Shown here piece after piece: positions 7,542 to 31,701 of a stretch of DNA of 32,000 nucleotides. The stretch covers positions 90,001-122,000 of the forward strand of contig NZ_CP054059.1 of the NCBI RefSeq assembly GCF_021057185.1, given 5' to 3'. Below the pieces are notes generated by a model. It saw only the letters and a list, made by a program, of their open reading frames with translations, was not told the origin of the DNA and did not search any database. The position numbers were made by a program, and so were the translations under genes. Source of the DNA: Candidatus Absconditicoccus praedator (GTDB lineage: Bacteria > Patescibacteriota > Gracilibacteria > Absconditabacterales > Absconditicoccaceae). Positions within the stretch are counted from its first letter, which is position 1, and each line of letters starts with the position of its first letter.

Positions 7542-8429
7542 TGTAAGAAAAGGTAGCGTTGTTAAAAAATTATCAGTAATAGAACTTTTCAATAACTTCA
7601 TAAGGAGTTTTATTATCTAGTCATTTATGTGGCTTTACAGTGTTATATCGATTTACAAATCTTTTTAAAGACATTTTTCTATGTTCTGATGACTTAAAAA
7701 CTTCCTTACTGTGCCACATATCGATTAATGTTCTTATAACCCTCTCTGCTTTTCAATTTGTTCTTGGTGTTCTAACTTTTGTAAATTTTTGCTTTATTCA
7801 GCTTTTTACACACTCTTTAACAAATTCATGTTTATCATTTCATTTGTACTCAACTCAATTATCTGAGTACACACACTCAATAGTGTAAGGACATTCATCT
7901 ATTACCTGTCTAAGAAACATAGACGAAGATACTTGTGTCTTATCTTGCATTATAGCTACATAAAGTTCTCTAGAATAGTCGTCTATTCATACAAATAAGT
8001 ATTCAGACTTTTTGTTTGCTGCTCATCTTATAAGAGGTAGTTTTTTTGTGTCAAAATGCATCATTTCTCAAGGGTAGTTTTTATTGTATCTTCTAGCTTC
8101 TTTGTTTTTCTTTTCTATTATCTTAGATTCTATTTTAGCTAATCTAAGTAATCATCGCCTAATGTTTCTAAATCTATTATTGATAGAATTTCTTGGTAAA
8201 AACTCTTGAGTTCTTGCTCTCTTTATTATCTTGTATATGGTAGGCAATGATACATTGAACTTAATATGTAAATCCTTAGGCTTCATTCATCTTTTATAGT
8301 ATTCCCAGACCTCTTTTCTCTGGAGTGGTGTTAGTCTTGTATTTTTATGTATATTCATTACATAGTTTGTTATCAAATAAATAGTATTTTGTATACACAT
8401 TATTTTTAACAACGCTATATAATCTTACA
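7542..8429 (-). mobile_element. IS481-family insertion sequence (~888 bp)
   Basis: Imperfect terminal inverted repeats: left TGTAAGAaaaggTAGCGTTGTTAAAAAATTA (from 7542), and right, reverse-complemented, TGTAAGAttataTAGCGTTGTTAAAAATAAT (ending 8429). It has TG...CA ends and a single DDE transposase ORF. A possible 4-bp AATA duplication is too low-complexity to trust. Confidence 0.8.
7570..8358 (-). CDS. DDE transposase, IS481 family (262 aa)
   Basis: MNIHKNTRLTPLQRKEVWEYY...LPTIYKIIKRAR (HTH); NYPGEMMHFDTKKL (D); CVYSDNGVEYKG (D); RTPRTNGKAERVIRTL (E). All 11 Gly codons I count are TGA. Ends ...YYG (TGA) TAA. Confidence 0.85.
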
Positions 8430-9320: not shown

Positions 9321-9521
9321 ATATTTGACTTTTTTGCTAAAAGTTAGTTGTAAATTATAAACTTTTTAAAATTTTTTTCAAATTTCTATAATTATTATTT
9401 ATGCTTACTGTTTATAGGTTTCAAATGTGTTTGTAAGAAACCTTAAATACATTTCCTGTATAATTTACTTTCTCTTGAAAAAGACAATTTTGTCATTAAT
9501 AAAAGGATGCAATCCATCAAT

Positions 9522-9684
9522 AGAGGAGGAGCAGAAATGTTCTGGCCGAACAATGATGGTTGAGCTCAGATACATGAGCAGTTAGAGGGAGTTCAATACA
9601 CTCAACAGAGGAGGAGTTGCCGTGTATCCTGATAATAAGGGGTAACACGGTCGCCGGGGTTAGAATCTAGCCCCGGCTTTTTTT
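9522..9684 (+). ncRNA. GC-rich structured transcript with two identical super-SD boxes, two mini-ORFs and a double-hairpin terminator (function unknown)
   Basis: AGAGGAGGAG occurs at 9522-9531 and again at 9607-9616. ATG at 9537 (MFWPNNDG then TGA at 9561) and GTG at 9622 (MYPDNKG then TAA at 9643). Hairpins: GCTCA..TGAGC, CCGTGT(9620)..ACACGG(9650), GCCGGGG(9653)..CCCCGGC(9677), followed by TTTTTTT. GC is far above the flanks. Confidence 0.4.
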
Positions 9685-9871
9685 ATTAAGTATACAATTG
9701 ATATCTTTTCAAAATATCAAAACATAAAACAAATTTTCTCAAAAATAAACTCAAACAAGATTTTTAACAATTTCAACAAAATAGTCAATTTTATAAATTT
9801 AGCTTGAAAAAACTTGTAAACTGTTTATCTTATATTATAATAAGCTAATTTTATACACTTTCACAACAAAG

Positions 9872-12220
9872 ATGCAATTTTCTGAAGCTGATACCAAAGC
9901 CAAATTCATAGACCCAAAACTCAAAGAATCAGCACGAGATGAAGCCAATATCATCAGAGAAGAATATTTTACCACTTGAAGAAAATTTGGAGCCAATACC
10001 AGATGAACTCCTGGATATGTAGACTATCTTCTCAAATACAAAAACAAAAACTTAGCAATAATAGAAGCCAAAAAATCTGAAGAATCTCCCACCAAATGAC
10101 TAGAACAAGCCAAAACCTACTGACAAAAACTTCAAGTAAGATTTGTATATTCTACCAACTGATACGAAATATACGAATTTGACCTAAAACTATGAAAATG
10201 AGATTTTGTAGATAGCTTTCCATCTCCAGAAGAATTATTCCAAAAAATTATTTGAAAAACCAACCATCTCAAAGAAAAGCTGTTAAGTACAGCCTACAGT
10301 ATAGAATGAAATGTCAAACCAAGATACTACCAAGAAAATGCTATCAACAAAGTACTTGAATCCATAGCAGACGGCAACCAAAGAATTCTTCTAACTCTTG
10401 CCACAGGTACCTGAAAAACATTTATAGCTTTTCAGATAGTTTGGAAACTGTTTCAAGCCAGATGGAACAACAAATCCAATTCACAAAGACCCAAAATCTT
10501 GTTTCTTGCAGACAGAAATATTTTGGTAGATCAAGCAATGAACACTTTCAATCCATTGGAAAAAGATATGATCAAGATTGACTGAAGCGAAATCAAAAGA
10601 AGATGATGAAAAGTACCTACCAATGCCAATATATTTTTTGCTATATATCAAGCAATCAGCGACAAAGAAAATATATGATGATACTACAAAGAATATCCTT
10701 CGGATTTTTTTGATTTGGTGATAATAGATGAATGTCATAGGTGATGAGCCAACGAAGAATGAACTTGGCATGAGATACTTCAGCATTTTTCTCCTGCTGT
10801 ACACCTGGGACTTACTGCCACTCCCAAAAGGCAGGACAATATAGATACTTATAATTATTTTGGTGAGCCTGTATATGAATACTCACTCAAAGAAGGGATC
10901 AACGATGGTTTCCTAACTCCCTACAAAGTCAAAAGAATCCAGACCAATCTAGATGAGTTTGTGCTAAATTCTGGAGACAAAATTTTGAAATGAGAATCTA
11001 CAAAATCTGTTTATGATATACAAGACCACGAAAGAAATATAATAATCCACGAAAGAACAGATCTAATAGCTCAAGCAATACTACAAAATATAAATCCTTA
11101 TGAAAAAACTATTGTTTTTTGTGTAGACCAAGATCATGCTCTAAGGCTCAGGGATGCTATCAACAAATACAAATCCAACAATGAAAAAGATTACTGTGTC
11201 AGAGTCACTTCTGATGAATGAGTAGAATGAAAACAATACTTAGAAAGATTCCAAGACAACGACAAAACTTTGCCTGTGATTTTGACTACTTCTCAGATGT
11301 TAACTACTGGAGTAGATGCCAAAAATGTCAGAAATATAGTTTTGCTGAAGCAAATAGGTTCTATGGTAGAATTCAAGCAGATAATATGAAGGTGAACCAG
11401 GCTTTTTGAGTGAAAAGATTATTTCAATATTATAGATTTTGTAGGAGCTACCAACAATTTTTATGATGAAGCCTGGGATGGTGAACCAGCTGCACCTGTC
11501 AAAAAATCCAAACTACAGCTTGGAGAAGATGAAGAGCAGTTAGAAGAAGTCTTGGAAGATTATCAAGAATCAGCAGAAAATCAAAATGAAAGTAATGATT
11601 ATGAGTTTTCTTCTCAGGATCAAGACCTGCCCAAAGAGAAGTTGGAAGTAGAGCTTGGAGACGACAGGACTGTCAAAATCATAAACATAGAAGAAAGATT
11701 TATTGATGAGAATTGAAAGCCACTAAGTGCAGAAGATTTTTTGCAAAAGATAGTGGGAAATATACCTCATCTATATCAAGATATAGATCAACTAAGGCAG
11801 GCTTGGGCTGATCCAGAAAGTAGAGAAGCTTTGTTACAAAAGCTTTATGATATGTGAATAGACAGAGAACAACTCCAAAATCTAAGGAAAATGTTTGAAG
11901 CTGATGGAGTGGATGTTTTTGATATATTGGCTTATATATCTTTCAATGTGGATATGAAAAAGAGGAAGGAAAGGGCTGATTATGTCAGGGAAAATACTGG
12001 TATATTGGAAAAGTATGAAAGTTCTAAGGCTAAGGAGTTTTTGGAATTTTTGTTAGAACAGTATGAAGCCAATGGTATTTTTGAGTTCAAAAGTCATAAT
12101 CTAAAAGCTATGATAGATTTGTATCATTCTACTCCTACGGAGTTGTCCAAGGCTTTTGGTGGGGCTGATAGGTTGAGAGAGGCTTATTTTGAGTTGCAGA
12201 AGGATATTTATGAATTGTAG
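9872..12220 (+). CDS. hsdR: Type I restriction enzyme R subunit (782 aa)
   Basis: MQFSEADTKAKFIDPKL (HsdR N-terminal nuclease region), LLTLATGTGKTFIAFQ (Walker A, with G encoded by TGA), DLVIIDECHRG (DEAH), HLGLTATP, TSQMLTTGVDAKNV, QIIGRGTR. The C-terminal EcoEI-R-like tail is track ORF 11891..12220. Confidence 0.92.
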
Positions 12221-12371
12221 AAAATTATTACTTTTTTAATAAGGTTGAACTCTATAAAATTAGGGATTTATTCTAGGAATTTAGTTTTGAGTGATTTTTA
12301 ATACAGTGAATTATTGACAGGAATTGAATGTTGATTACATATAGTATAATTTATTTTTTAAAATTAACAAT

Positions 12372-12878
12372 ATGTGAAATTATGCCTTTATAGACTGACA
12401 AAATCTATACTTATGAACAAGTAGTGAATGATGGAATTTTGATTTAGAAAAGCTTAGAACATATCTTAAGGATAAATACAAAGTTACCAAGGCTTATTAT
12501 TTTTTGTGATATGTACAGGATGAAAATAATTCACTTTATACTAAATTGCAAGAGTCGGGTTTTATAGTGGTATTTAAAAAACAGATGGTAAATATGACTA
12601 CTGCCAAAAAGTGAAATATAGATAGTGATATGATATTTTGGGTGATGCAAAAACTAATAGAAGAACCAGAAAAATTTGAGCAAATAGTAATAGTATCAGG
12701 AGATTGAGATTTCAAGATATTAGTTGATTACTTGATAAGAAAATGAAGGCTCAAAAAAATATTATTCCCAAATAAAAAATATGCTTCTTCTTTGTATAAT
12801 GATCTTTTGAATGAATATTTTGCTTATATGAAGGATATTAGACCCAAAATTGAGTATAAAAAAAGAGAAGGTACCTAA
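12372..12878 (+). CDS. NYN-domain (LabA/DUF88-like) putative ribonuclease (168 aa)
   Basis: MGNYAFIDGQNLYLG...KAYYFLGYV...GFIVVFK...KGNIDSDMIFWVM...IVIVSGDGDFKILVDYLIRKGRLKKILFP follows the NYN/LabA pattern (IDGxN...D...SGDGDF). 7 in-frame TGA. TAA at 12876-12878. Confidence 0.8.
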
Positions 12879-13008
12879 AGCACCAACACTTTTCGGATCC
12901 CTTCTCGTCTTGATACATTTATATTATAATCAGTTTTTTCAAAAATTCAAGTTTTTGATAAAAAAATTATTTACTTTGTTTCTGTGGTATGTTTGGATTA
13001 AGAAAAAA

Positions 13009-13035
13009 AGGTTTGAAATTTGCTTCAAACCTTTT
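13009..13035 (+). terminator. Intrinsic terminator-like hairpin downstream of the NYN gene
   Basis: AGGTTTGAA-atttgc-TTCAAACCT followed by TTT. A second GC-rich hairpin, CTCCATCGC-ttttg-GCGATGGGAG (13057-13080), follows. Confidence 0.55.
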
Positions 13036-13206
13036 ATATTATAGTTATTAATTTATCTCCATCGCTTTTGGCGATGGGAGGATCCCGGAGGACATTATGA
13101 ATATATGTTAATTAAAATTTTTTAGAATTCAAATAAATCTATGAAAAATAACATAATTAGATTCTAATATAGAAAGAGGTAATTTATTCTTATTATATTT
13201 TAAATA

Positions 13207-15177
13207 ATGCAATATAACTCTTTTAGGAAAATACTTAAATTAATTTTTTTACATCTTTTACCGTCAATTATATTTTATTATATTTGGAAAATTTTTGATT
13301 TTCTTAAAATTAAATTTAAACCTTATAAGGCAATTTTAAATAAATTATCTCTTTTTTTATTGTATGTTTTATTTACAACATTTTTAGCTTTATTGTCTAT
13401 TCTAATTTACAATAACTATATACTTTCAAATGAATTAGATATTATTAATTATCATGATTTATTGATACTACTATTTTTTTTTCTTTTATTCTTATTTTTA
13501 AGAAATGCTGAAACTATATTAGATTATACTCATAGTAAAATTAAAATAATTTCTTCTTTAATTTTATTTCTATTTTTATTTTTTAATATAGAGGAAATAT
13601 ATGCGATATGATTAGGTCAGTTTTTAACTGCAATTTTTTTTTACTGACTATTCTTTATTATAGTTTTTAATGTTTCTTGAGTAAAATCATATAATAATTG
13701 ATTATTAGTAAAATCATATAAGATAGAAAATAGAAGTTTTGATCAATTCTTTGATACATATTTAAATTTATTAAACGAAAAATGAAATTTTATAAATCCA
13801 ATTTTTGATGAACCAATATCAATTGATAATGATGATATATTTTGAATTAATGATATCGTCCAAAATTTATACAATATAATTTTGTGAATAGACTTCAACA
13901 ATCAAAAAGGTTCATATAGTATATGAATAGTAGGTGAATGGTGAAGCTGAAAAAGTAGTATTATAAATTATCTAAAAGATAAATATTTATTTTGATCACC
14001 AACAATTAAAACACTAGAATTTAATCCTTGGAATTATGAAAAGGATGACTTAATAAATAAGTTTTTCACTGAATTGTCTATTGTGCTTTGAAAATCAACC
14101 AATTTGAATAGTAGTATAAAAAAGTATTTAAAGGCATTGTGAGAATTACATAGTTCATTTAATGCTATTAATAGCTTGATTTCAAGCAAGTCTATTAATG
14201 AGATAAAAAAAGATTTGAATAATGAATTAAATAACTCATGAAAGAAAATTATTGTGATAATTGATGACTTAGATAGATGTGATCCATATGAAATTCTATT
14301 AATGCTAAATTTAATAAAAAACTTATGAGATCTGAAAAATATAATATATTTAGTTTCTTACGATAAAGGGAATATAACTAAAGTTCTTGATGATAAGGGG
14401 TTTGATTGAAATTATATAGAAAAGATTATAAATATAGAAAGGTTTGTTCCTGTTTTCACACAAGAACAAAAAAAGAAATATTTTAAAAATGAACTTAAAA
14501 ATATTCTTTGAAAATTATTTTTTAATAAAATTATTTTACCATTAAATTTTGATAAATGGTTTGAAAGTCTATATGTTCAAGATGTGTATATTTCTAAAAA
14601 GGCAAATGCTGAAATTAGAGAAAAATGGCAATTAGCTAAAAGAGAACCTTATTATTTTTTTAAGTATTTAGATGAATTTAATTCTATAGTTAATATTAAT
14701 TTACCTAAAACACTTTTAAACTATAAAAAATTATATTTAAATAAGCCTGAAAAAATAGTCAATACACTATTAAATGAGTTTGATAAAATGCTTGAAGTAG
14801 AAAATCTTAGATTTATAAAAAAATTATTAAATCAATTAAATATTGTTTTGCAGTTAAATTTGAGTAATAATACTAATATGATTCTTGATTTTCATGATGA
14901 AGATTATAAAAAAATTATTGCTATAAATTATTTTAAATTAAAAAATTATTCAAAATTTAACTATGTGATAGATAAATTTATACTAAAAGAAGTTTGAAAA
15001 TTAGTTGATGATAAAAAAATAAAAAGAATTAAAGATGATGATTTTCTTATCAATAAAGATATATATAATGAATATTTTTTAAACAATATATTAAATATTA
15101 GCAAAATGGATCAGTCTAATTTAAGATATACAACTATAAGTGATAAAGATTTTAAAATTATAAAAGAGTTTTCATAA
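13207..15177 (+). CDS. KAP-family P-loop NTPase with an N-terminal multi-TM domain (656 aa); Tmn-like
   Basis: About 5 hydrophobic helices in the first ~160 aa. Then IGIVGEWGSGKSSIINYL (Walker A, both invariant Gly encoded by TGA), LEFNPWNY and KKIIVIIDDLDRCDPYEILLMLNLIK (KAP Walker B). Joins track ORFs 13207..13611 and 14584..14997. Extremely AT-rich. TAA TAA stop. Confidence 0.85.
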
Positions 15178-15223
15178 TAATAAAAAGTAATTATACATTT
15201 ACTATAAATAACCTACAAACCCA

Positions 15224-16390
15224 ATGCAAAACCTACCTGAATGATGGGAAATAAAAAAACTTTGAGATATAGCAACTTTTACAAATTGATTTGCATTTAA
15301 AAGTAGCTTATTTAAGGATGAATGAAAACCAATTTTAAGAATAGCTAATATAAAAGAGAACTGAATTTCTTTTAAAAATCTTGTATATTTTAATGATGAA
15401 GATTATTCACAAGATTTGTCGAATTATAAAGTTTTTCCTTGAGATTTAGTAATAGCAATGTCTTGAGCTACTACTGGGAAACTTACTATAAACAACACAG
15501 ATAAAACCTTTTATTTAAATCAAAGAGTTTGAAAAATTTGATTTGATAATGAAATTACTAAACAATACATTTATTCTTTTTTAAAAACTAAAATAGAATA
15601 CAATCTTAATCGTTCATCTTGATCAGCCATACCCAATTTAAGTACACAACAAATAAAAAATACTGAAATCCCACTCCCACCTCTCGAAACTCAAAAGCAA
15701 ATAGCAGCCAAACTTGATGAAGTGCTGGGAGATATTGACCAGTCTATCCAACTAATCCAACAAAACATAGCCCACATAGATGAAATGAGCAAATCTGTCT
15801 TGAATCAAGTTTTTGAAGAAAAATGGGAAATAAAAAAACTTTGAGATATAGTAAATTTTTCTCAATGACTTCAAGTTCCTATAAAAGAACAAAAATATGA
15901 TTGAAATTATAGATTTTTAAGAATAATTGATTTTACACAATGAAATCAGGAACCTAGGTTTATAGAGAAATATGATGAGAGAGCTTTTGTAAAAGAAACA
16001 GATATTTCTATGGTTAGATATTGAGCATCTACTTGATTTATATGTACTTGAAAAAAATGAATTATAGCAAATAATTTATTTAAGATTACTGCAACTATAG
16101 ATAGTCTTAATAAAAAATATTTGTATTTTTATTTTTTATCAGATTTTTTTAAAAATTACCTTTTTCTAAATGTATATTGAGCAGCAATGCCAGCTATTAA
16201 ATTTTCAACTATTAGCGAATTAGATATCCCACTTCCACCTCTATCCAAACAACAAGAAATAGTTGATTATCTAGACAATATTTTCCAAACCAACGAACAA
16301 CTCAAAAATCAATACCAACAAAAACTTGCCAATCTACAAGAACTCAAAAAATCTGTCCTAAACTCTGCTTTTGAAGGGAAACTGGTTTAA
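15224..16390 (+). CDS. hsdS: Type I R-M specificity subunit with two target-recognition domains (388 aa)
   Basis: LPEGWEIKKLGDIATFTNGFAFKS (TRD1 start) and EEKWEIKKLGDIVNFSQG (TRD2 start). Conserved helices IPLPPLETQKQIAAKLDEVL and IPLPPLSKQQEIVDYLDNIF. C-terminus SVLNSAFEGKLV. Confidence 0.9.
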
Positions 16391-16412
16391 TTATAAGTTT
16401 GATGAAAATTCA

Positions 16413-16985
16413 ATGAGCAAATCTATCAAAAAAGCTGTTTATCTAATATTCTTGGCTATATTTATACTTCTTTTATATTTGGTATACACAATCTGACCTG
16501 CTCAAATTGTTGATTTTATCTGACTAGAAAATACATACCTTGTAATTTTCTTTTTTGCTTTTGTATGATGAGTATTTTTCCTAACTGCAGCTACATTTTA
16601 TACAACATTAGCAACTTTTGTTGTATGATGAGCAGATTTGCTTACTTTGTCGCTAATATCAGCAATATGACTAACAATTGGTGATTTCTTCTTTTATTTT
16701 TTGGGGAGGAAAGCAAAATTATTTATAAATGATAGCAAATACAAATCAAAAGTTGAAAAATTTTCCAACTGGATAAGAGCCAAATCTGATAAAACAATTT
16801 TTTGGTTTTTGCTGCTTTATTGGAGTTTTGCCCCATTGCCAAATGATATACCATCATCATGATTATGAATTGCTTGATACAACTGGAAAAAAATGATACT
16901 TCCAATTTTTGTGTGAAATATTAATTATAATTTGCTGATATGAAGCCTGGCAATGTTTGGATACAGTATATATTGAGTACTCTAA
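16413..16985 (+). CDS. DedA/SNARE-associated (VTT-domain) family membrane protein (190 aa)
   Basis: Polytopic hydrophobic protein with the diagnostic LTIGDFFFYFLGRK motif and ...FAPLPNDIPSSGLGIAGY. 14 or more in-frame TGA. Confidence 0.7.
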
Positions 16986-17016
16986 AAGGTCTTTACAGGT
17001 AATTTAATGGGGTGTC

Positions 17017-17200
17017 CCCCTTCAAACATCCAACGAATGTTTAAGGGGATCCCTTCAAATCCCTAAGTTACCGCGCGGAGTTGAAGGTATGGACCACCCC
17101 TAAATTATCGCGCGGAGTTGAGGGTGTGCGGCATCCCTAAGTTATCGCGCGAAGTTTGAGGTATGCTGCATCCTTCAAATATTCAATGAACATTTGAGGG
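17017..17200. repeat. GC-rich repeat element: three tandem 37-bp units flanked by two homologous hairpins
   Basis: Units are 17061-17097, 17098-17134 and 17135-17171 (CCCTAAGTTACCGCGCGGAGTTGAAGGTATGGACCAC and variants). The left hairpin is CCTTCAAACAT..ATGTTTAAGG (17017-17048). The right hairpin is CCTTCAAAT..ATTTGAGGG (17172-17200). A truncated unit (CCTAAATTA) follows. Confidence 0.8.
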
Positions 17201-17234
17201 AGCTACCTAAATTAATAAAAACATAATCATAAAG

Positions 17235-17302
17235 ATTTCCAACCCACATATTAATATTGAAAAAAATATCCAAAGATATATTATATCAAATAAGTTTAGC
17301 TT
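17235..17302 (+). repeat. Copy 1 of a duplicated ~68-bp promoter-like segment (upstream of the 17317 gene)
   Basis: ATTTCCAACCCACATATTAATATTGAAAAAAATATCCAAAGATATATTATATCAAATAAGTTTAGCTT is near-identical to 18222-18290 and contains TTGAAA-N17-TATATT. Confidence 0.75.
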
Positions 17303-17316
17303 GTCATAACAAAGAA

Positions 17317-17886
17317 ATGACAAAAAAAGATAAATTGGCTATATATCAAAATGATAATTGAGAAATAAAAGTTAATTTTGATGAAAATCAAGAAACTTTT
17401 TTATGACTTGATAGTACTTGATGGACATCCCTGAGTGCCATAGCTATATTTTTATCTGTATTAGCATCTTTATTTATTTCTATTTGTTTAGAACCACTAA
17501 AAAATAGTTTTAAGAAAAAAAGGATTTTAAAAGTCTTAGAAAGTAACTTAGACAAAAATATTGAAATTTTGAAAAAAATAAAAGAATTTGATTTGTATGA
17601 AATTACTAGAAATCAAAAAGAAGAAGAACAAGAAAAATTAAAGAAATTTGTTTATAGTATAAACTTTGAATCTTGGGAATTAAATAAAAGTTTTTTATCT
17701 ATAACAAGCCCACAGGAATTTGATAAATATAATAATATACATATTAAATTAAGTAATATAAAAAATGAATTTTGTGAACTAGAAAACATCAATAGATATT
17801 GGTATACTAAAAATGTTGAAAAGATAATAAGTAAGTTTAATTATACTAAAAATAATATAAAAAAGTTCTTAGAGGAATACGAATAA
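17317..17886 (+). CDS. Hypothetical membrane-anchored coiled-coil protein (189 aa)
   Basis: MTKKDKLAIYQNDNGEIKVNFDENQETFLGLD..., one TM segment (LSAIAIFLSVLASLFISICL), then a Lys/Glu-rich helical region. Extends track ORF 17569..17886 upstream through 3 TGA codons. Confidence 0.55.
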
Positions 17887-18221
17887 ATACAATGCTATAC
17901 TATATTTATTTAAAAAATTTGAATAGGTATATTTCTAACTTTTAAATCATTATTAATATCTTCTAATTCAATTAGTTCCAAAATGACACTAGTTTAAAAA
18001 AAGCAATGTGCAAAAAATGCACATACCACTAAATTGAGCCTGGTTAATAAAATCAGCAAAACTATTTCCAAACAAACTCAAACTTAGAAACAGTTTGTAA
18101 TAGTAAGTAGATTTCAAAATCTTTAAACTTGTCACGATTTACAAAACAACATTGTCCGTGACAAAAGCTAATATAAGTTTTGAATTGATTTTTCTAAAAA
18201 ATATCAAATTGGACCGTGACA

Positions 18222-18290
18222 ATTTCCAAACCCCAATATTAATATTGAAAAAAAAATCCAAAGATATATTATATCAAATAAGTTTAGTTT
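18222..18290 (+). repeat. Copy 2 of the duplicated promoter-like segment (upstream of hsdM)
   Basis: ATTTCCAAACCCCAATATTAATATTGAAAAAAAAATCCAAAGATATATTATATCAAATAAGTTTAGTTT. See 17235-17302. Confidence 0.75.
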
Positions 18291-18380
18291 ATAAAAAATC
18301 ACTTATTTCATATTTTGCAACAACTGTCATTTGTACTATAAATCATTATGTTAAACCAATTTACCAAATAATCATACCCA

Positions 18381-19826
18381 ATGCAACAACAAATAAACAG
18401 AATTACAGATATTCTCCGTAGAGACGACTGAATCTCTTGAGCTATGCACTATACAGAACAAATATCCTGGATTCTTTTTCTGAAATTTATAGATGATTAT
18501 GAAAAAGAAAATTATGAATGAGCCTTGCTTGATGGCAAAGATTATGAATTTATACTAGACCCAAAGTTTAGACGAGATAATCGAGCCTGTCCCAAGACCA
18601 AAGACCACAAACTTGATGTGAACAATGCTCTTACCTGAGATGATCTCAAAGATTTCGTAAACAATGAGCTTTTCCCTTATCTTCAATCTTTCAAAGATAC
18701 CAGTAAAGATTACAATACTATGAAATACAAAATAGGTGAAATCTACTATTTCATAGACAACAGGATAGAAAGCTGACACACTATCAGAGAGATTTTGGAT
18801 ATAGTAGACTGACTCAGTTTTCAAAGCGAAAAAGATCTTTTTGAGCTTAGTAAAATATATGAAGACTTGCTTCAGTGAATGGGTAGCGATGGTTGAAATT
18901 CAGGTGAGTTTTATACTCCAAGACCTGTAATAAAAGCTATGACAGATACTATCAACCCCAAGATTGGGCAAACTATTTATGATGGAGCCAGTGGTAGTTG
19001 TTGATTTTTGATAGAAGCTTTTGAAAACCTAAAAAAACAAGAAAAAACAACTGATGACTACTATTTCCTAAGGAATAAAACCTTTTATGGAAACGAAAAG
19101 ACACCAATAGCTTATATTATGGGTATGATGAATATGATACTTCATTGAATTTCCAACCCAAACCTAAGCAAGCAAAACAGCCTCACCCAAGATGTAAGAT
19201 CTATTGAAGAAAAAGACAGATACGATATTATCCTTGCCAATCCACCTTTTGGATGAAAAGAAAAGGAACAAATTCAAGCTAATTTCCCTATCAAAACCAA
19301 CTCTACTGAAATGCTATTTCTCCAACATTTTATGAAAAAACTCAAAACTTGATGAAAAGCTGCTATAATTGTCCCAGAATGAGTTTTGTTTAATACCTCA
19401 CAACCTTTCCAAAAAATTAAACAAGAACTTATAGAAAATTATAATCTACATACTATTTGTAGTTTGCCTGCAGGAGTGTTTTTGCCTTATTCTGGAGTAA
19501 AAACAAATATTATATATTTTGACAAACAGTGAACTACCAAGGATATACGATATTATGAAATAAATCCTTGAAGAAATCTTACCAAGAATTCCCCTTTGAA
19601 ATACGAAGAAATCCAAGAATTTATAGATCTTTTTGATAGCAGGAAAGAAACAGAAAATTCATGGATAGCTCCAGTAGAAGATATCAAAGACTATGATATA
19701 TCAGCCAAAAATCCTCACAAAAATAAACCAGAAGAATACAGAACTCCTCAAGAAATACTAGAAAATATTGAAAATAATGACCAAAAAATCAATGAATTAA
19801 CCAATAGACTAAAAGAAGCTATCTAA
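18381..19826 (+). CDS. hsdM: Type I R-M DNA methyltransferase subunit (N6-adenine), 481 aa
   Basis: ITDILRRDDGISGAMHYTEQISWILFLKF (HsdM N-terminus), GEFYTPRPV, IYDGASGSCGFL (AdoMet motif I), ILANPPFGGKE (motif IV), STEMLFLQHFM, AAIIVPEGVLF. Confidence 0.92.
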
Positions 19827-31365: not shown

Positions 31366-31410
31366 TTTTTTGATATTTGACAAAATAAAAAAGATGGTTA
31401 TAAATAGTAT

Positions 31411-31435
31411 GCTGGTAGTTTTGCCAGCGTTTTTT
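31411..31435 (+). terminator. Terminator-like hairpin after topA
   Basis: GCTGG-tagttttg-CCAGC followed by gTTTTTT, ~45 nt after the topA TAA. It is overlapped upstream by TTGACA(31377)-N16-TATAAA. Confidence 0.55.
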
Positions 31436-31451: not shown

Positions 31452-31655
31452 ATGCACAAAGTCCAGACTGTCCAGACTGAACGGGCTGCAAACTCTATCA
31501 TTACTGGCAGAGAGGTTATGAGACTCCAAAGCGAAGATGACTTTTGGAGACTTGTAGATGAACGTAGGGGAAATGAGGATGTAATTCCTCTCAGCCCCTT
31601 AGCTATAGAGTGTGCGGCCAAGAAGGGATGGTTGAAGACACCTGAGGTGTTATAA
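31452..31655 (+). CDS. Small hypothetical soluble protein (67 aa); SD-led, TGA-free, GC-elevated cassette ORF
   Basis: AAGGAG sits 6 nt before the ATG at 31452. MHKVQTVQTERAANSIITGREVMRLQSEDDFWRLVDERRGNEDVIPLSPLAIECAAKKGWLKTPEVL. TAA stop, then a double-hairpin terminator. Confidence 0.55.
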   Translation: MHKVQTVQTERAANSIITGREVMRLQSEDDFWRLVDERRGNEDVIPLSPLAIECAAKKGWLKTPEVL

Positions 31656-31701
31656 CACTTCAGGTATCCACCTTGGAGTTTACTCCAAGGTGGTCTTTTT
31701 T
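31639..31701 (+). terminator. Double-hairpin intrinsic terminator
   Basis: ACACCTGAGGTG-ttataa-CACTTCAGGT, then CCACCTTGGAG-ttta-CTCCAAGGTGG (11 bp perfect), followed by TCTTTTTT. Confidence 0.75.

What the first reader, a model, noticed from the sequence alone, without database searches (positions are those of the whole stretch)
17005..17210. GC-rich element inside the R-M island: 3 x 37-bp tandem repeats with co-varying CGCGCG palindromes, bracketed by two homologous hairpins
The three exact-period units (17061, 17098, 17135) each carry an 8-bp palindrome that changes symmetrically: CCGCGCGG, then TCGCGCGG, then TCGCGCGA. This preserves dyad symmetry, as expected for a dimeric protein-binding site or a paired structure. 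The array is flanked by two related stem-loops (17017-17048 and 17172-17200, ~22/28 identical). The repeated CCTTCAAAT segments can pair with TTGAAGG/TTTGAGG inside the units, which offers mutually exclusive helices. GC is far above the ~30% background, a classic hallmark of structured RNA in AT-rich genomes. The element lies between the DedA gene and the duplicated promoter that drives the next gene. Candidate roles are a novel ncRNA, an iteron or operator array, or the remnant or end of a mobile element.
Basis: seen in the sequence. Interest (0 to 1): 0.65.

Follow-up and report, generated by a model that had tools for sequence, protein, structure and literature searches.

The report
Strain-variable array of hairpin repeats
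A 200-base GC-rich stretch between two genes of the tiny predatory bacterium Candidatus Absconditicoccus praedator is a row of five to six related 37-base hairpin-forming repeats. Unit number differs between strains, it is found only at this one locus in close relatives, and it shows no sign of being a conserved RNA gene, so it is a fairly ordinary REP/BOX-like intergenic repeat.

Summary
Three 37-bp units (17059-17173) each carry a CGCGCG core and are flanked by two homologous hairpins. GC is 47% against a 29% background.

Re-phasing shows that the hairpins and the units are variants of one ~37-nt imperfect palindrome. The element (17009-17216) is therefore a tandem array of 5-6 units.

The window comes from Candidatus Absconditicoccus praedator, which reads TGA as Gly. 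Orthologous arrays lie after the same DedA-like gene in three related assemblies, and they differ:
- One has an extra hairpin unit.
- One has the two hairpin types adjacent with no CGCGCG unit between them.
- The poly-C tract is C5, C7 or C10.

Other results:
- More distant relatives lack the array.
- Pattern scans of species-representative genomes, JGI metagenomes, viral contigs, phages and plasmids found no other copy.
- Rfam gives no match.
- The array diverges at about the synonymous rate of the adjacent gene (5.6% against 5-6%).
- There is no significant covariation, and one orthologue breaks the "symmetric" palindrome flank.
- Single CGCGCG units fold no better than shuffled sequence.

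Best reading (confidence 0.4): a locus-specific palindromic minisatellite with BOX/BIME-like architecture, lying in the 3' end of the hsdR...hsdS-DedA transcription unit and acting, if at all, as a cis RNA hairpin barrier or insulator. The main rival is a functionless relic. Interest is low to moderate.

The parts
16413..16985 (+). DedA/VTT-like membrane protein gene (TGA read as Gly). The array begins 24 nt after its stop. It is the conserved upstream partner of the array in all orthologous loci.
   Evidence: Code-25 translation. Pfam VTT_dom E=3e-7, below the curated cutoff. 97.4% nt identity to L001 10001-10573.
17009..17044 (+). Unit M0, 'hairpin A': GGGGTGT-CCCCCTTCAAACAT-CCAACGA-ATGTTTAA(GGGG). 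It includes the poly-C tract 17016-17020, which is C5 here, C7 in L001 and C10 in L002.
   Evidence: RNA hairpin -13.3 kcal/mol; nhmmer A/B profile E=2e-11.
17045..17085 (+).
   Evidence: (helix I2).
17086..17122 (+).
17123..17159 (+). Together with its linkers it forms a 44-nt imperfect palindrome centred on CGCGCG.
   Evidence: (I1).
17160..17197 (+). Unit M4, 'hairpin B': GGTATGCTGCAT-CCTTCAAATAT-TCAATGA-ACATTTGA(GGG).
   Evidence: (-13.5 kcal/mol, z -2.4).
17198..17216 (+). Degenerate partial unit M5 (GGGAGCTACCTAAATTAAT), the 3' edge of the array.
   Evidence: Read from the sequence, re-phased. This assignment is weak.
17235..17302 (+). Promoter-like block (TTGAAA-16-TATTAT at 17257-17284), conserved with the array in all orthologues and duplicated at 18222-18290.
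17317..17886 (+). Chimeric gene. The first ~28 codons are the N-terminus of a RhuM/Fic gene that is intact in L006/L030; the rest is unrelated. It is absent from L001, so it is not a conserved partner of the array.
18381..19826 (+). hsdM (type I methyltransferase). In L001 it is the gene that directly follows the array and promoter.
9873..16390 (+). hsdR, NYN-domain gene, KAP NTPase gene and hsdS, upstream of and co-directional with the DedA-like gene. They are deleted in L001 by a fusion of hsdR codon ~19 to the last codons of hsdS.

Best explanation
The element (17009-17216) is a locus-specific tandem array of five to six diverged copies of one ~37-nt imperfect palindrome.

**Anatomy.** There are two unit variants. 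The outer units have an 11-12-bp stem and a CCAACGA loop. The inner units carry a CGCGCG core. Each unit is a palindrome and the units are tandem, so every 3' arm can pair with its own 5' arm or with the next unit's 5' arm. This gives the 'mutually exclusive helices'.

**Evolution.** The array gains and loses units and poly-C bases between strains, most likely by replication slippage or unequal recombination between units (inferred). Its sequence drifts at about the neutral rate.

**Position.** It lies at the 3' end of the co-directional hsdR-NYN-KAP-hsdS-DedA gene string. It is directly followed by the promoter that drives the variable defence genes and hsdM.

**Most likely effect (inferred, not shown).** It acts in cis on the transcript. 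A row of stable stem-loops without a U-tract would block 3'-to-5' exonucleases and attenuate read-through. That would separate the upstream transcription unit from the downstream promoter, as REP/BIME and BOX-type intergenic palindromic repeats do in other bacteria.

**What it is not.** It is not a member of those families. Its sequence is unrelated, and it is known from only one locus in one genus-level lineage.
For: - The repeat structure and the homology of all units are shown.
- The whole 221 nt folds at -79 kcal/mol, z -4.6 on the + strand and -5.0 on the - strand. Hairpin B alone has z -2.4.
- Orthologous arrays sit at the same place after the DedA-like gene in L001, L002 and L006 but differ in make-up. 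L002 has an extra hairpin-A unit. L006 has hairpin A directly followed by hairpin B. The poly-C tract is C5, C7 or C10.
- Both unit types are found only at this locus in 202 kb of held sequence.
- They are also found only at this locus in scans of GTDB representative genomes, JGI metagenomes, IMG/VR, phages and plasmids.
- There is no canonical terminator between the DedA stop and the next promoter. Canonical hairpin-plus-T-run terminators do occur elsewhere in the window, at 9653-9677, 31409-31430 and 31668-31693.
- With L006 as outgroup, three derived substitutions in the window's lineage each turn a stem mismatch of hairpin A or B into a Watson-Crick pair.
- The array holds about 11 CpG in 200 bp, in a genome with CpG O/E 0.24 (about 0.9 per 200 bp). 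It contains all three CGCGCG of the window.
- The BOX architecture (terminal modules plus a variable number of tandem internal modules, strain-variable length, effect through RNA secondary structure) is described in PMC3049150.
Against: - No transcript data exist, so an RNA-level role is inferred only.
- No hairpin is followed by a U-tract, so it is not a canonical intrinsic terminator.
- Window against L001: the array differs at 11 of 195 aligned sites (5.6%) plus 3 indels. DedA third positions differ at 5.2%, DedA four-fold sites at 6.3% and the downstream spacer at 5.1%. There is no sign of purifying selection on the sequence.
- Covariation is not significant. There is one C-G/U-A exchange between the A and B types, and 74 of 500 shuffles score as high. 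The CGCGCG units show none.
- Several substitutions break predicted pairs.
- Single CGCGCG units fold no better than shuffles (z +0.7 and +1.0).
- REP, BIME and BOX elements are dispersed in tens to hundreds of copies. No second copy was seen here.
Confidence: 0.4

Rival explanations
1. It is a functionless relic. It would be a palindromic minisatellite that arose by local amplification, or the remains of a foreign or mobile insertion, and it now drifts neutrally and changes unit number by slippage. Any effect on neighbouring genes would be incidental.
For: - Divergence is at the synonymous rate.
- There is no significant covariation, and several changes break pairs.
- Unit composition differs among close strains.
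- It is absent from the next-closest DedA homologue (51% aa, L003/L004), where the gene is followed 20 bp later by an MFS gene. It is also absent from the hsdS-Fic spacers of related type I operons.
- Its CpG and GC content are foreign to this genome, and the same window holds another clearly foreign GC-70% segment.
- Two of the window lineage's derived changes are CpG-to-TpG, as expected for unprotected decay.
Against: - It is retained at the same place in four assemblies, including the more diverged L006 (85-89% identity).
- All nine CGCGCG cores are intact despite genome-wide CpG depletion.
- Three derived stem changes all improve pairing.
- No terminal inverted repeats, target duplication or source sequence were found.
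- The sample is too small for any of this to be decisive.
Confidence: 0.3
2. It is a DNA-level protein-binding array. The three CGCGCG-centred dyads, spaced 37 bp apart, would be operators or architectural sites (regulator, gyrase/nucleoid protein, recombinase or partition protein). They would control or insulate the downstream defence-gene promoter.
For: - Each inner unit is an extended imperfect palindrome centred on an invariant CGCGCG.
- The array and the promoter block travel together in all orthologues, while the genes behind the promoter differ.
Against: - A 37-bp spacing is about 3.5 helical turns, so successive sites face opposite sides.
- The arms flanking CGCGCG are poorly symmetric on the DNA level, and the flank pair is C/A in L001.
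- L006 shows hairpin A directly followed by hairpin B, with no CGCGCG unit between them and the promoter.
- No DNA-binding, replication or partition gene is conserved beside it.
Confidence: 0.1
3. It is an independent structured non-coding RNA. One version is a multi-hairpin RNA whose palindromic CGCGCG loops pair with one another (kissing loops, multimerisation). Another is a protein sponge.
For: - The region is strongly folded on either strand.
- It is GC-rich in an AT-rich genome.
- The CGCGCG sequences are self-complementary and can pair between units. RNAalifold pairs unit 1 with unit 2.
Against: - There is no Rfam match.
- No convincing promoter lies upstream and no terminator lies downstream. 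Promoter-like hits are at shuffle frequency.
- There is no compensatory change among orthologues.
- It diverges at the neutral rate.
- Module number is not conserved.
- It is restricted to one genus-level lineage.
Confidence: 0.08
4. It is a contingency (phase-variation) switch. Changes in poly-C length or unit number would alter expression of the downstream hsdM and defence genes.
For: - The poly-C tract is C5, C7 or C10 in three assemblies, and unit number varies.
- It is the only C run of 5 or more in the window.
- It lies in a restriction-modification locus.
Against: - The tract is about 240 bp upstream of the -35 element and outside any reading frame.
- The differences are between strains or assemblies, not shown within a population.
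- Long homopolymers in short-read assemblies are error-prone.
Confidence: 0.05
5. It is a type III toxin-antitoxin RNA antitoxin (ToxI-like): tandem ~36-nt repeats that are processed and neutralise a neighbouring endoribonuclease toxin.
For: - It consists of 5-6 direct repeats of ~37 nt inside a defence island. This is the same format as ToxI, and repeat arrays preceding the toxin gene define type III systems (PMC3401426).
Against: - The gene that follows the array differs in every strain: a chimeric RhuM' gene, hsdM, or PDC-S18.
- None of these matches a ToxN/CptN/TenpN-type toxin in Pfam or PADLOC.
- There is no promoter directly upstream of the repeats and no terminator between the repeats and a toxin gene.
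Confidence: 0.02

Closest known systems
BOX elements of Streptococcus pneumoniae (boxA-(boxB)n-boxC composite repeats; PMC3049150)
   Same: - The layout is composite: two related terminal modules bracket a tandem run of internal modules.
- Module number varies between strains.
- The location is intergenic and co-transcribable.
- Extensive stem-loops are predicted.
- Length is about 200 bp.
   Different: - There is no sequence relation.
- BOX occurs in over 100 dispersed copies per genome and is thought to be MITE-like. Here there is one locus only.
- Here all modules are variants of a single 37-nt palindrome.
REP / BIME (palindromic units) of enterobacteria
   Same: - The units are GC-rich imperfect palindromes of about 35-40 nt, clustered after a gene's stop codon between co-directional genes.
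- The known REP/BIME function, an mRNA 3'-end barrier and attenuator, fits the position (function recalled from the literature and summarised in PMC3049150).
   Different: - BIME units alternate in orientation and number in the hundreds. They are linked to RAYT transposases.
- Here all units are direct and single-locus, and no RAYT is known.
ToxI-type antitoxin RNA arrays of type III toxin-antitoxin systems (PMC3401426)
   Same: - Both are tandem direct repeats of about 36-37 nt.
- The copy number is about 5.5.
- Both lie within phage-defence loci.
   Different: - There is no conserved toxin gene downstream.
- There is no promoter-repeats-terminator-toxin layout.
- The units here are palindromic and GC-rich.
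Intrinsic (Rho-independent) terminators
   Same: GC-rich stem-loops at the end of a transcription unit.
   Different: - No U-tract follows any hairpin.
- There are five or six hairpins instead of one.
- The same genome has canonical terminators elsewhere.
Iteron / operator arrays
   Same: Direct repeats with internal dyad symmetry, lying upstream of a promoter.
   Different: - The period is 37 bp, which is out of helical phase.
- There is no adjacent rep or regulator gene.
- The repeat number and even the repeat type vary between strains.

Membership tests
REP/BIME | Imperfect palindromic units of about 20-40 nt in intergenic DNA after gene ends | tested here: met
   Units of 36-41 nt with 9-12-bp arms, starting 24 nt after the DedA stop.
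REP/BIME | Tens to hundreds of dispersed copies per genome | tested here: inconclusive
   No second copy in the 32-kb window, in about 15 kb of extra sequence from the close relative L001, or in 170 kb of other loci. Two exact-pattern scans of GTDB representative genomes found only one orthologous contig. The complete A. praedator genome itself could not be read.
REP/BIME | Units in alternating orientation within a cluster; RAYT transposase in the genome | tested here: not met
   All units are in direct orientation. Presence of a RAYT could not be tested.
BOX-type composite repeat | Terminal modules bracketing a variable number of tandem internal modules | tested here: met
   A-u1-u2-u3-B in the window and L001. 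A-A-u1-u2-u3-B in L002. A directly followed by B in L006.
BOX-type composite repeat | Sequence homology to boxA/boxB/boxC and multi-copy dispersal | tested here: not met
   No similar sequence in any collection scanned. Single locus. No direct comparison with the BOX models was run.
MITE | Terminal inverted repeats, target-site duplication, multiple copies, matching IS ends | tested here: not met
   No inverted match of at least 80% over 12 nt between the two ends. No 11-mer shared with the IS (rve) region or the rest of the window beyond AT-rich chance hits. No empty site was available to define a target duplication.
Type III toxin-antitoxin antitoxin RNA | Tandem direct repeats of about 34-45 nt | tested here: met
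   5-6 units of about 37 nt.
Type III toxin-antitoxin antitoxin RNA | Repeats followed by a terminator and a conserved ToxN/CptN/TenpN-type toxin gene | tested here: not met
   The downstream gene differs in each strain. No toxin family hit in Pfam or PADLOC.
Rfam structured RNA families | Score at or above a family's gathering threshold | tested here: not met
   0 hits at gathering thresholds over the window. Only sub-threshold hairpin-like chance hits at E of 0.75 or worse.
Conserved structured ncRNA (general) | Compensatory base changes that maintain helices among homologues | tested here: not met
   0 of 64 alifold pairs have a double change. A/B hairpins: 1 pair, not above shuffles. CGCGCG units: none. 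Power is low, with only 3-4 close orthologues.
Intrinsic terminator | GC-rich hairpin immediately followed by a U-tract | tested here: not met
   No terminator-like site on the + strand in 16300-18500. The hairpins are followed by G/A-rich or mixed sequence.
Iteron/operator array | Repeats in helical phase beside a cognate rep or regulator gene | tested here: not met
   Period of 37 bp. The neighbours are DedA-like, hsdS, a RhuM fragment and hsdM. Protein binding itself cannot be tested with these tools.
CRISPR array | Repeats separated by unique spacers, cas genes nearby | tested here: not met
   The units abut one another without spacers. No cas genes among the window ORFs.

The most novel reading that the evidence does not exclude
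The CpG-rich array is kept in a strongly CpG-depleted, TGA-recoded CPR genome because it is a working switch at the border of a defence-gene hotspot.

Two versions are possible:
- An RNA whose three palindromic CGCGCG loops pair within or between molecules, giving a kissing-loop scaffold or multimer.
- A methylation- or supercoil-sensitive (Z-DNA/cruciform-prone) DNA insulator that sets expression of whichever defence cassette sits behind the conserved promoter.

Unit and poly-C number would provide heritable tuning.
Probability: 0.07. Interest if true: 0.6.

Novelty: new member of a known kind. Interest (0 to 1): 0.25.

Why it matters
Intergenic palindromic repeat arrays are well known in proteobacteria, neisseriae and streptococci. 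To my knowledge they have hardly been described in the reduced, recoded genomes of Absconditabacteria and the candidate phyla radiation (I did not search the literature on this point).

This one is a clean, small example. It has a single locus, strain-level unit variation and a CpG-rich composition in a CpG-poor genome, and it sits at the edge of a defence-gene hotspot.

Uses, if it proves functional or not:
- If it acts as an RNA barrier or insulator, it would show how such organisms separate transcription units without canonical terminators.
- If it has no function, it is still a useful strain marker.
- It is a caution that 'GC-rich and well folded in an AT-rich genome' does not by itself indicate an RNA gene.

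Tried and rejected
1. **Rfam.** Searched at gathering thresholds over the window and at E up to 10 over 16800-17450. Nothing meaningful. No tRNA or tmRNA.

2. **Exact degenerate pattern scans.**
 - The unit 22-mer gave 0 hits in genome contigs, metagenome contigs and viral contigs.
 - The hairpin pattern gave 0 hits in viral contigs.
 - The shorter hairpin pattern found one true orthologue (L006) in genome contigs. All other hits were AT-rich chance matches in genomes and metagenomes.
 - Looser one-unit and two-unit patterns in viral contigs gave only GC-rich chance hits.

3. **blastn against phages and plasmids.** Only 26-nt chance hits at E about 0.8.

4. **Retrieving the window's own genome.** Table-11 ORF fragments and the exact NCBI protein P0001 are not on record.

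5. **Type III antitoxin idea.** Rejected, because there is no conserved downstream toxin.

6. **attC, dif/Xer-site and G-quadruplex readings.** Considered from the sequence and dropped. The units are too short for attC and match its core sites only partly. The inner arm bases are not symmetric, as Xer sites require. The G-runs are too far apart.

7. **MITE reading.** No terminal inverted repeats and no similarity to the IS.

8. **Six-frame translation of the array, for use as a protein query.** Open stretches are at most 31 aa, too short to be useful, so it was not run.

9. **The original genome paper** (doi 10.1111/1462-2920.15823) is not held.

10. **Promoter-like matches on either strand around the array** are at shuffle frequency and were not used as evidence.

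Full report
**1. Observation**

- Tandem Repeats Finder gives one array at 17059-17173: period 37, 3.1 copies, score 137. This is the highest score in the window.
- The repeat finder gives three copies spaced exactly 37 bp apart (78-80% identity). It also gives two related hairpins at 17019-17047 and 17172-17200 (79% identity).
- It reports the alternative helix 17049-17062 with 17077-17090, and a 44-nt palindrome centred on the third CGCGCG.
- GC reaches 47% against 29% for the window.
- Neither motif recurs in the window, and none is expected by chance.

**2. Organism and context**

In-frame TGA makes up 3-5% of the codons of every long ORF, so TGA is a sense codon, read as glycine under code 25. 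The downstream protein is 100% identical to an NCBI protein of Candidatus Absconditicoccus praedator on a 1,129,696-bp contig.

Gene order on the + strand is as follows:
- hsdR
- a NYN-domain gene
- a KAP NTPase gene
- hsdS
- a DedA/VTT-like membrane protein gene (16413-16985)
- the element
- a promoter-like block (17235-17302)
- a chimeric gene (17317-17886)
- a second copy of the promoter block (18222-18290)
- hsdM

**3. Anatomy**

Phasing the sequence at the GG that follows each 3' arm shows that the 'hairpins' and the 'units' are variants of one ~37-nt unit. M4 (hairpin B) and M3 (unit 3) share GGTNTGCNGCATCC..T.AA...GAA..TTTGA. The element is therefore M0 to M5, five full units and a degenerate sixth, at 17009-17216.

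Each unit is an imperfect palindrome. In a tandem array this gives two dyad axes per period, one at the loop and one at the linker. That explains the mutually exclusive helices.

Folding results:
- The full 221 nt fold at -79 kcal/mol, with z -4.6 on the + strand and -5.0 on the - strand.
- Taken alone, only the outer units are good hairpins: hairpin A -13.3 kcal/mol and hairpin B -13.5 kcal/mol (z -2.4).
- The CGCGCG units alone fold no better than shuffled sequence, with z +0.7 and +1.0.

**4. Relatives**

The DedA-like protein led to two ENA contigs from closely related strains, L001 and L002. A hairpin-pattern scan of species-representative genomes found a third, more diverged contig, L006. 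All three carry the array at the same place. Their make-up differs:
- L001 has A-u1-u2-u3-B.
- L002 has an extra hairpin-A unit.
- L006 starts inside the array and shows hairpin A directly followed by hairpin B, then the promoter.
- The poly-C tract is C5 in the window, C7 in L001 and C10 in L002.

The genes behind the promoter differ in each assembly. In L001 it is hsdM. In the window it is the chimeric RhuM fragment. In L006 and L030 it is a PDC-S18 candidate defence gene followed by an intact RhuM/Fic gene. L001 has lost hsdR through hsdS by a clean deletion that fuses hsdR codon ~19 to the last hsdS codons.

The next-closest DedA homologue (51% aa identity, L003/L004) is followed 20 bp later by an MFS gene and has no array. 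Related Gracilibacteria type I operons (hsdR-X-hsdS-Fic-hsdM) have AT-rich spacers with neither DedA nor the array.

**5. No other copies**

- Profile HMMs of both unit types hit only the orthologous locus in the 32-kb window plus 170 kb of fetched loci.
- Exact degenerate patterns found nothing else in GTDB representative genomes, JGI metagenomes or IMG/VR.
- blastn against phages and plasmids gave only chance hits.
- Caveat: the window's own genome could not be read directly. Single-copy status within it rests on the collection scans, assuming the genome is in that collection with only this window masked, which I could not verify.

**6. Constraint**

Between the window and L001 the array differs at 11 of 195 aligned sites (5.6%), plus 3 indels. 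For comparison:
- Third codon positions of the adjacent DedA gene: 5.2%.
- Four-fold degenerate sites of DedA: 6.3%.
- The spacer after the array: 5.1%.

The primary sequence is therefore not under visible purifying selection.

Covariation tests give little:
- RNAalifold on the orthologues finds 0 of 64 pairs with a double change.
- Across seven distinct A/B hairpins, one pair switches C-G to U-A between the A and B types. The score is matched by 74 of 500 shuffles.
- Across seven distinct CGCGCG units, no pair changes on both sides.

Two observations hint at some constraint or at a templated mutation bias:
- With L006 as outgroup, three derived substitutions in the window's lineage each convert a stem mismatch of hairpin A or B into a Watson-Crick pair.
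- All nine CGCGCG cores are intact in a genome whose CpG O/E is 0.24. The array holds all three CGCGCG of the window.

Two of the window's derived changes are CpG-to-TpG, so CpG decay does act inside the array.

**7. Mechanism**

The array lies at the end of a co-directional gene string and just before the next promoter. No canonical terminator lies between them, although the genome uses canonical hairpin-plus-T-run terminators elsewhere.

The most economical reading is a REP/BIME- or BOX-like cis element. In the transcript, the row of stem-loops would impede 3' exonucleases and read-through and so separate the two transcription units. Slippage or unequal recombination between units would change unit number.

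This is inference by analogy. BOX architecture and its RNA-structure effects are described in PMC3049150. No expression data were available. I give it 0.4.

A functionless relic of local amplification or foreign DNA is nearly as likely (0.3). The remaining rivals have little support: a DNA operator or insulator, an independent ncRNA, a contingency switch, and a type III antitoxin.

**8. Comparison and novelty**

The element works like, and is laid out like, composite intergenic palindromic repeats. These have terminal modules, variable tandem inner modules and strain variation.

It fails membership of REP/BIME, BOX and MITE on orientation, sequence similarity and terminal repeats; multi-copy dispersal could not be shown and remains inconclusive because the complete genome could not be read. 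It fails type III antitoxin membership because no conserved toxin follows it. It matches no Rfam family.

It is a new, lineage-restricted member of a known kind of element. Interest is low to moderate at 0.25. The residual interest lies in the CpG-rich cores and in the position at a defence-gene hotspot border.

Noticed in passing
whole window: TGA is a sense codon. It appears in frame at 3-5% of the codons of long ORFs, a frequency that fits Gly (code 25) and not Trp. Table-11 ORF lists therefore fragment every gene. The source is Candidatus Absconditicoccus praedator (Absconditabacteria/SR1).
   Followed up: yes
window 21340-22593 (-), GC peak 21561-22437: A GC-70% segment encodes a tetrahydrodipicolinate N-succinyltransferase (DapD) homologue (Pfam THDPS_N_2 1e-25, Hexapep). 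It sits in a 29%-GC genome and is flanked by terminator-like hairpins. It looks like recently acquired foreign DNA, possibly from the GC-rich prey. It holds the only CGCG tetramers of the window outside the array.
   Followed up: partly
window 9500-9685 (+): A GC-rich (up to 53%) intergenic stretch ends in the strongest terminator of the window (GCCGGGG...CCCCGGC + T7 at 9653-9677), just upstream of hsdR. It could be a small RNA, or a 42-codon ORF under code 25. It has no Rfam family (best hit Spot 42, E 0.35).
   Followed up: partly
window 17235-17302 and 18222-18290; L006 and L030: The promoter block after the array is duplicated (69 bp, 92.8% identity) around the inserted gene 17317-17886. 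Different defence genes sit behind this promoter in different strains: hsdM, a RhuM fragment, or PDC-S18 plus RhuM/Fic. The site behaves as a cassette-like hotspot. Several short-read contigs break here.
   Followed up: partly
window 17317-17886 and 17997-18027: The 'hypothetical protein' is chimeric. Its first ~28 codons (17317-17401) are 96% identical in DNA to the start of the intact RhuM/Fic gene of L006. A further 31-nt RhuM fragment survives at 17997-18027. The gene is a disrupted RhuM.
   Followed up: partly
L001 9883-9978 versus window 9873-16390: In the close relative, hsdR codon ~19 is fused in frame to the last codons of hsdS. This deletes hsdR, the NYN gene, the KAP NTPase gene and hsdS, and leaves an orphan hsdM.
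   Followed up: yes
window, excluding the array and the DapD segment: CpG is strongly depleted (O/E 0.24), while GpC is normal (1.16). There are zero CGCG in 30.3 kb, which is as expected given the CpG depletion (0.6-0.8 expected).
   Followed up: yes
window 7570-8424 (-): An rve-family (IS481-like) transposase gene lies about 1.4 kb upstream of the R-M island. It shares no sequence with the array.
   Followed up: partly
window 18125-18225; L020 340-440: Repeated TGTCACGA/TCGTGACA-type inverted motifs (ttgtcacgat...cgtgaca, ...ccgtgacaa) lie upstream of the second promoter copy. They are shared with the region upstream of a Fic gene in L020 and look like operator sites.
   Followed up: no
L001 15005-15218: A 27-bp x 7.9 tandem repeat (95% matches, TRF score 379) lies inside the S8 peptidase gene of the related strain. 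It is an in-frame coding repeat.
   Followed up: no
window 31453-31656 (+): A small GC-richer ORF of 67 codons follows topA. It has its own ribosome-binding site and a strong terminator (31668-31693).
   Followed up: no
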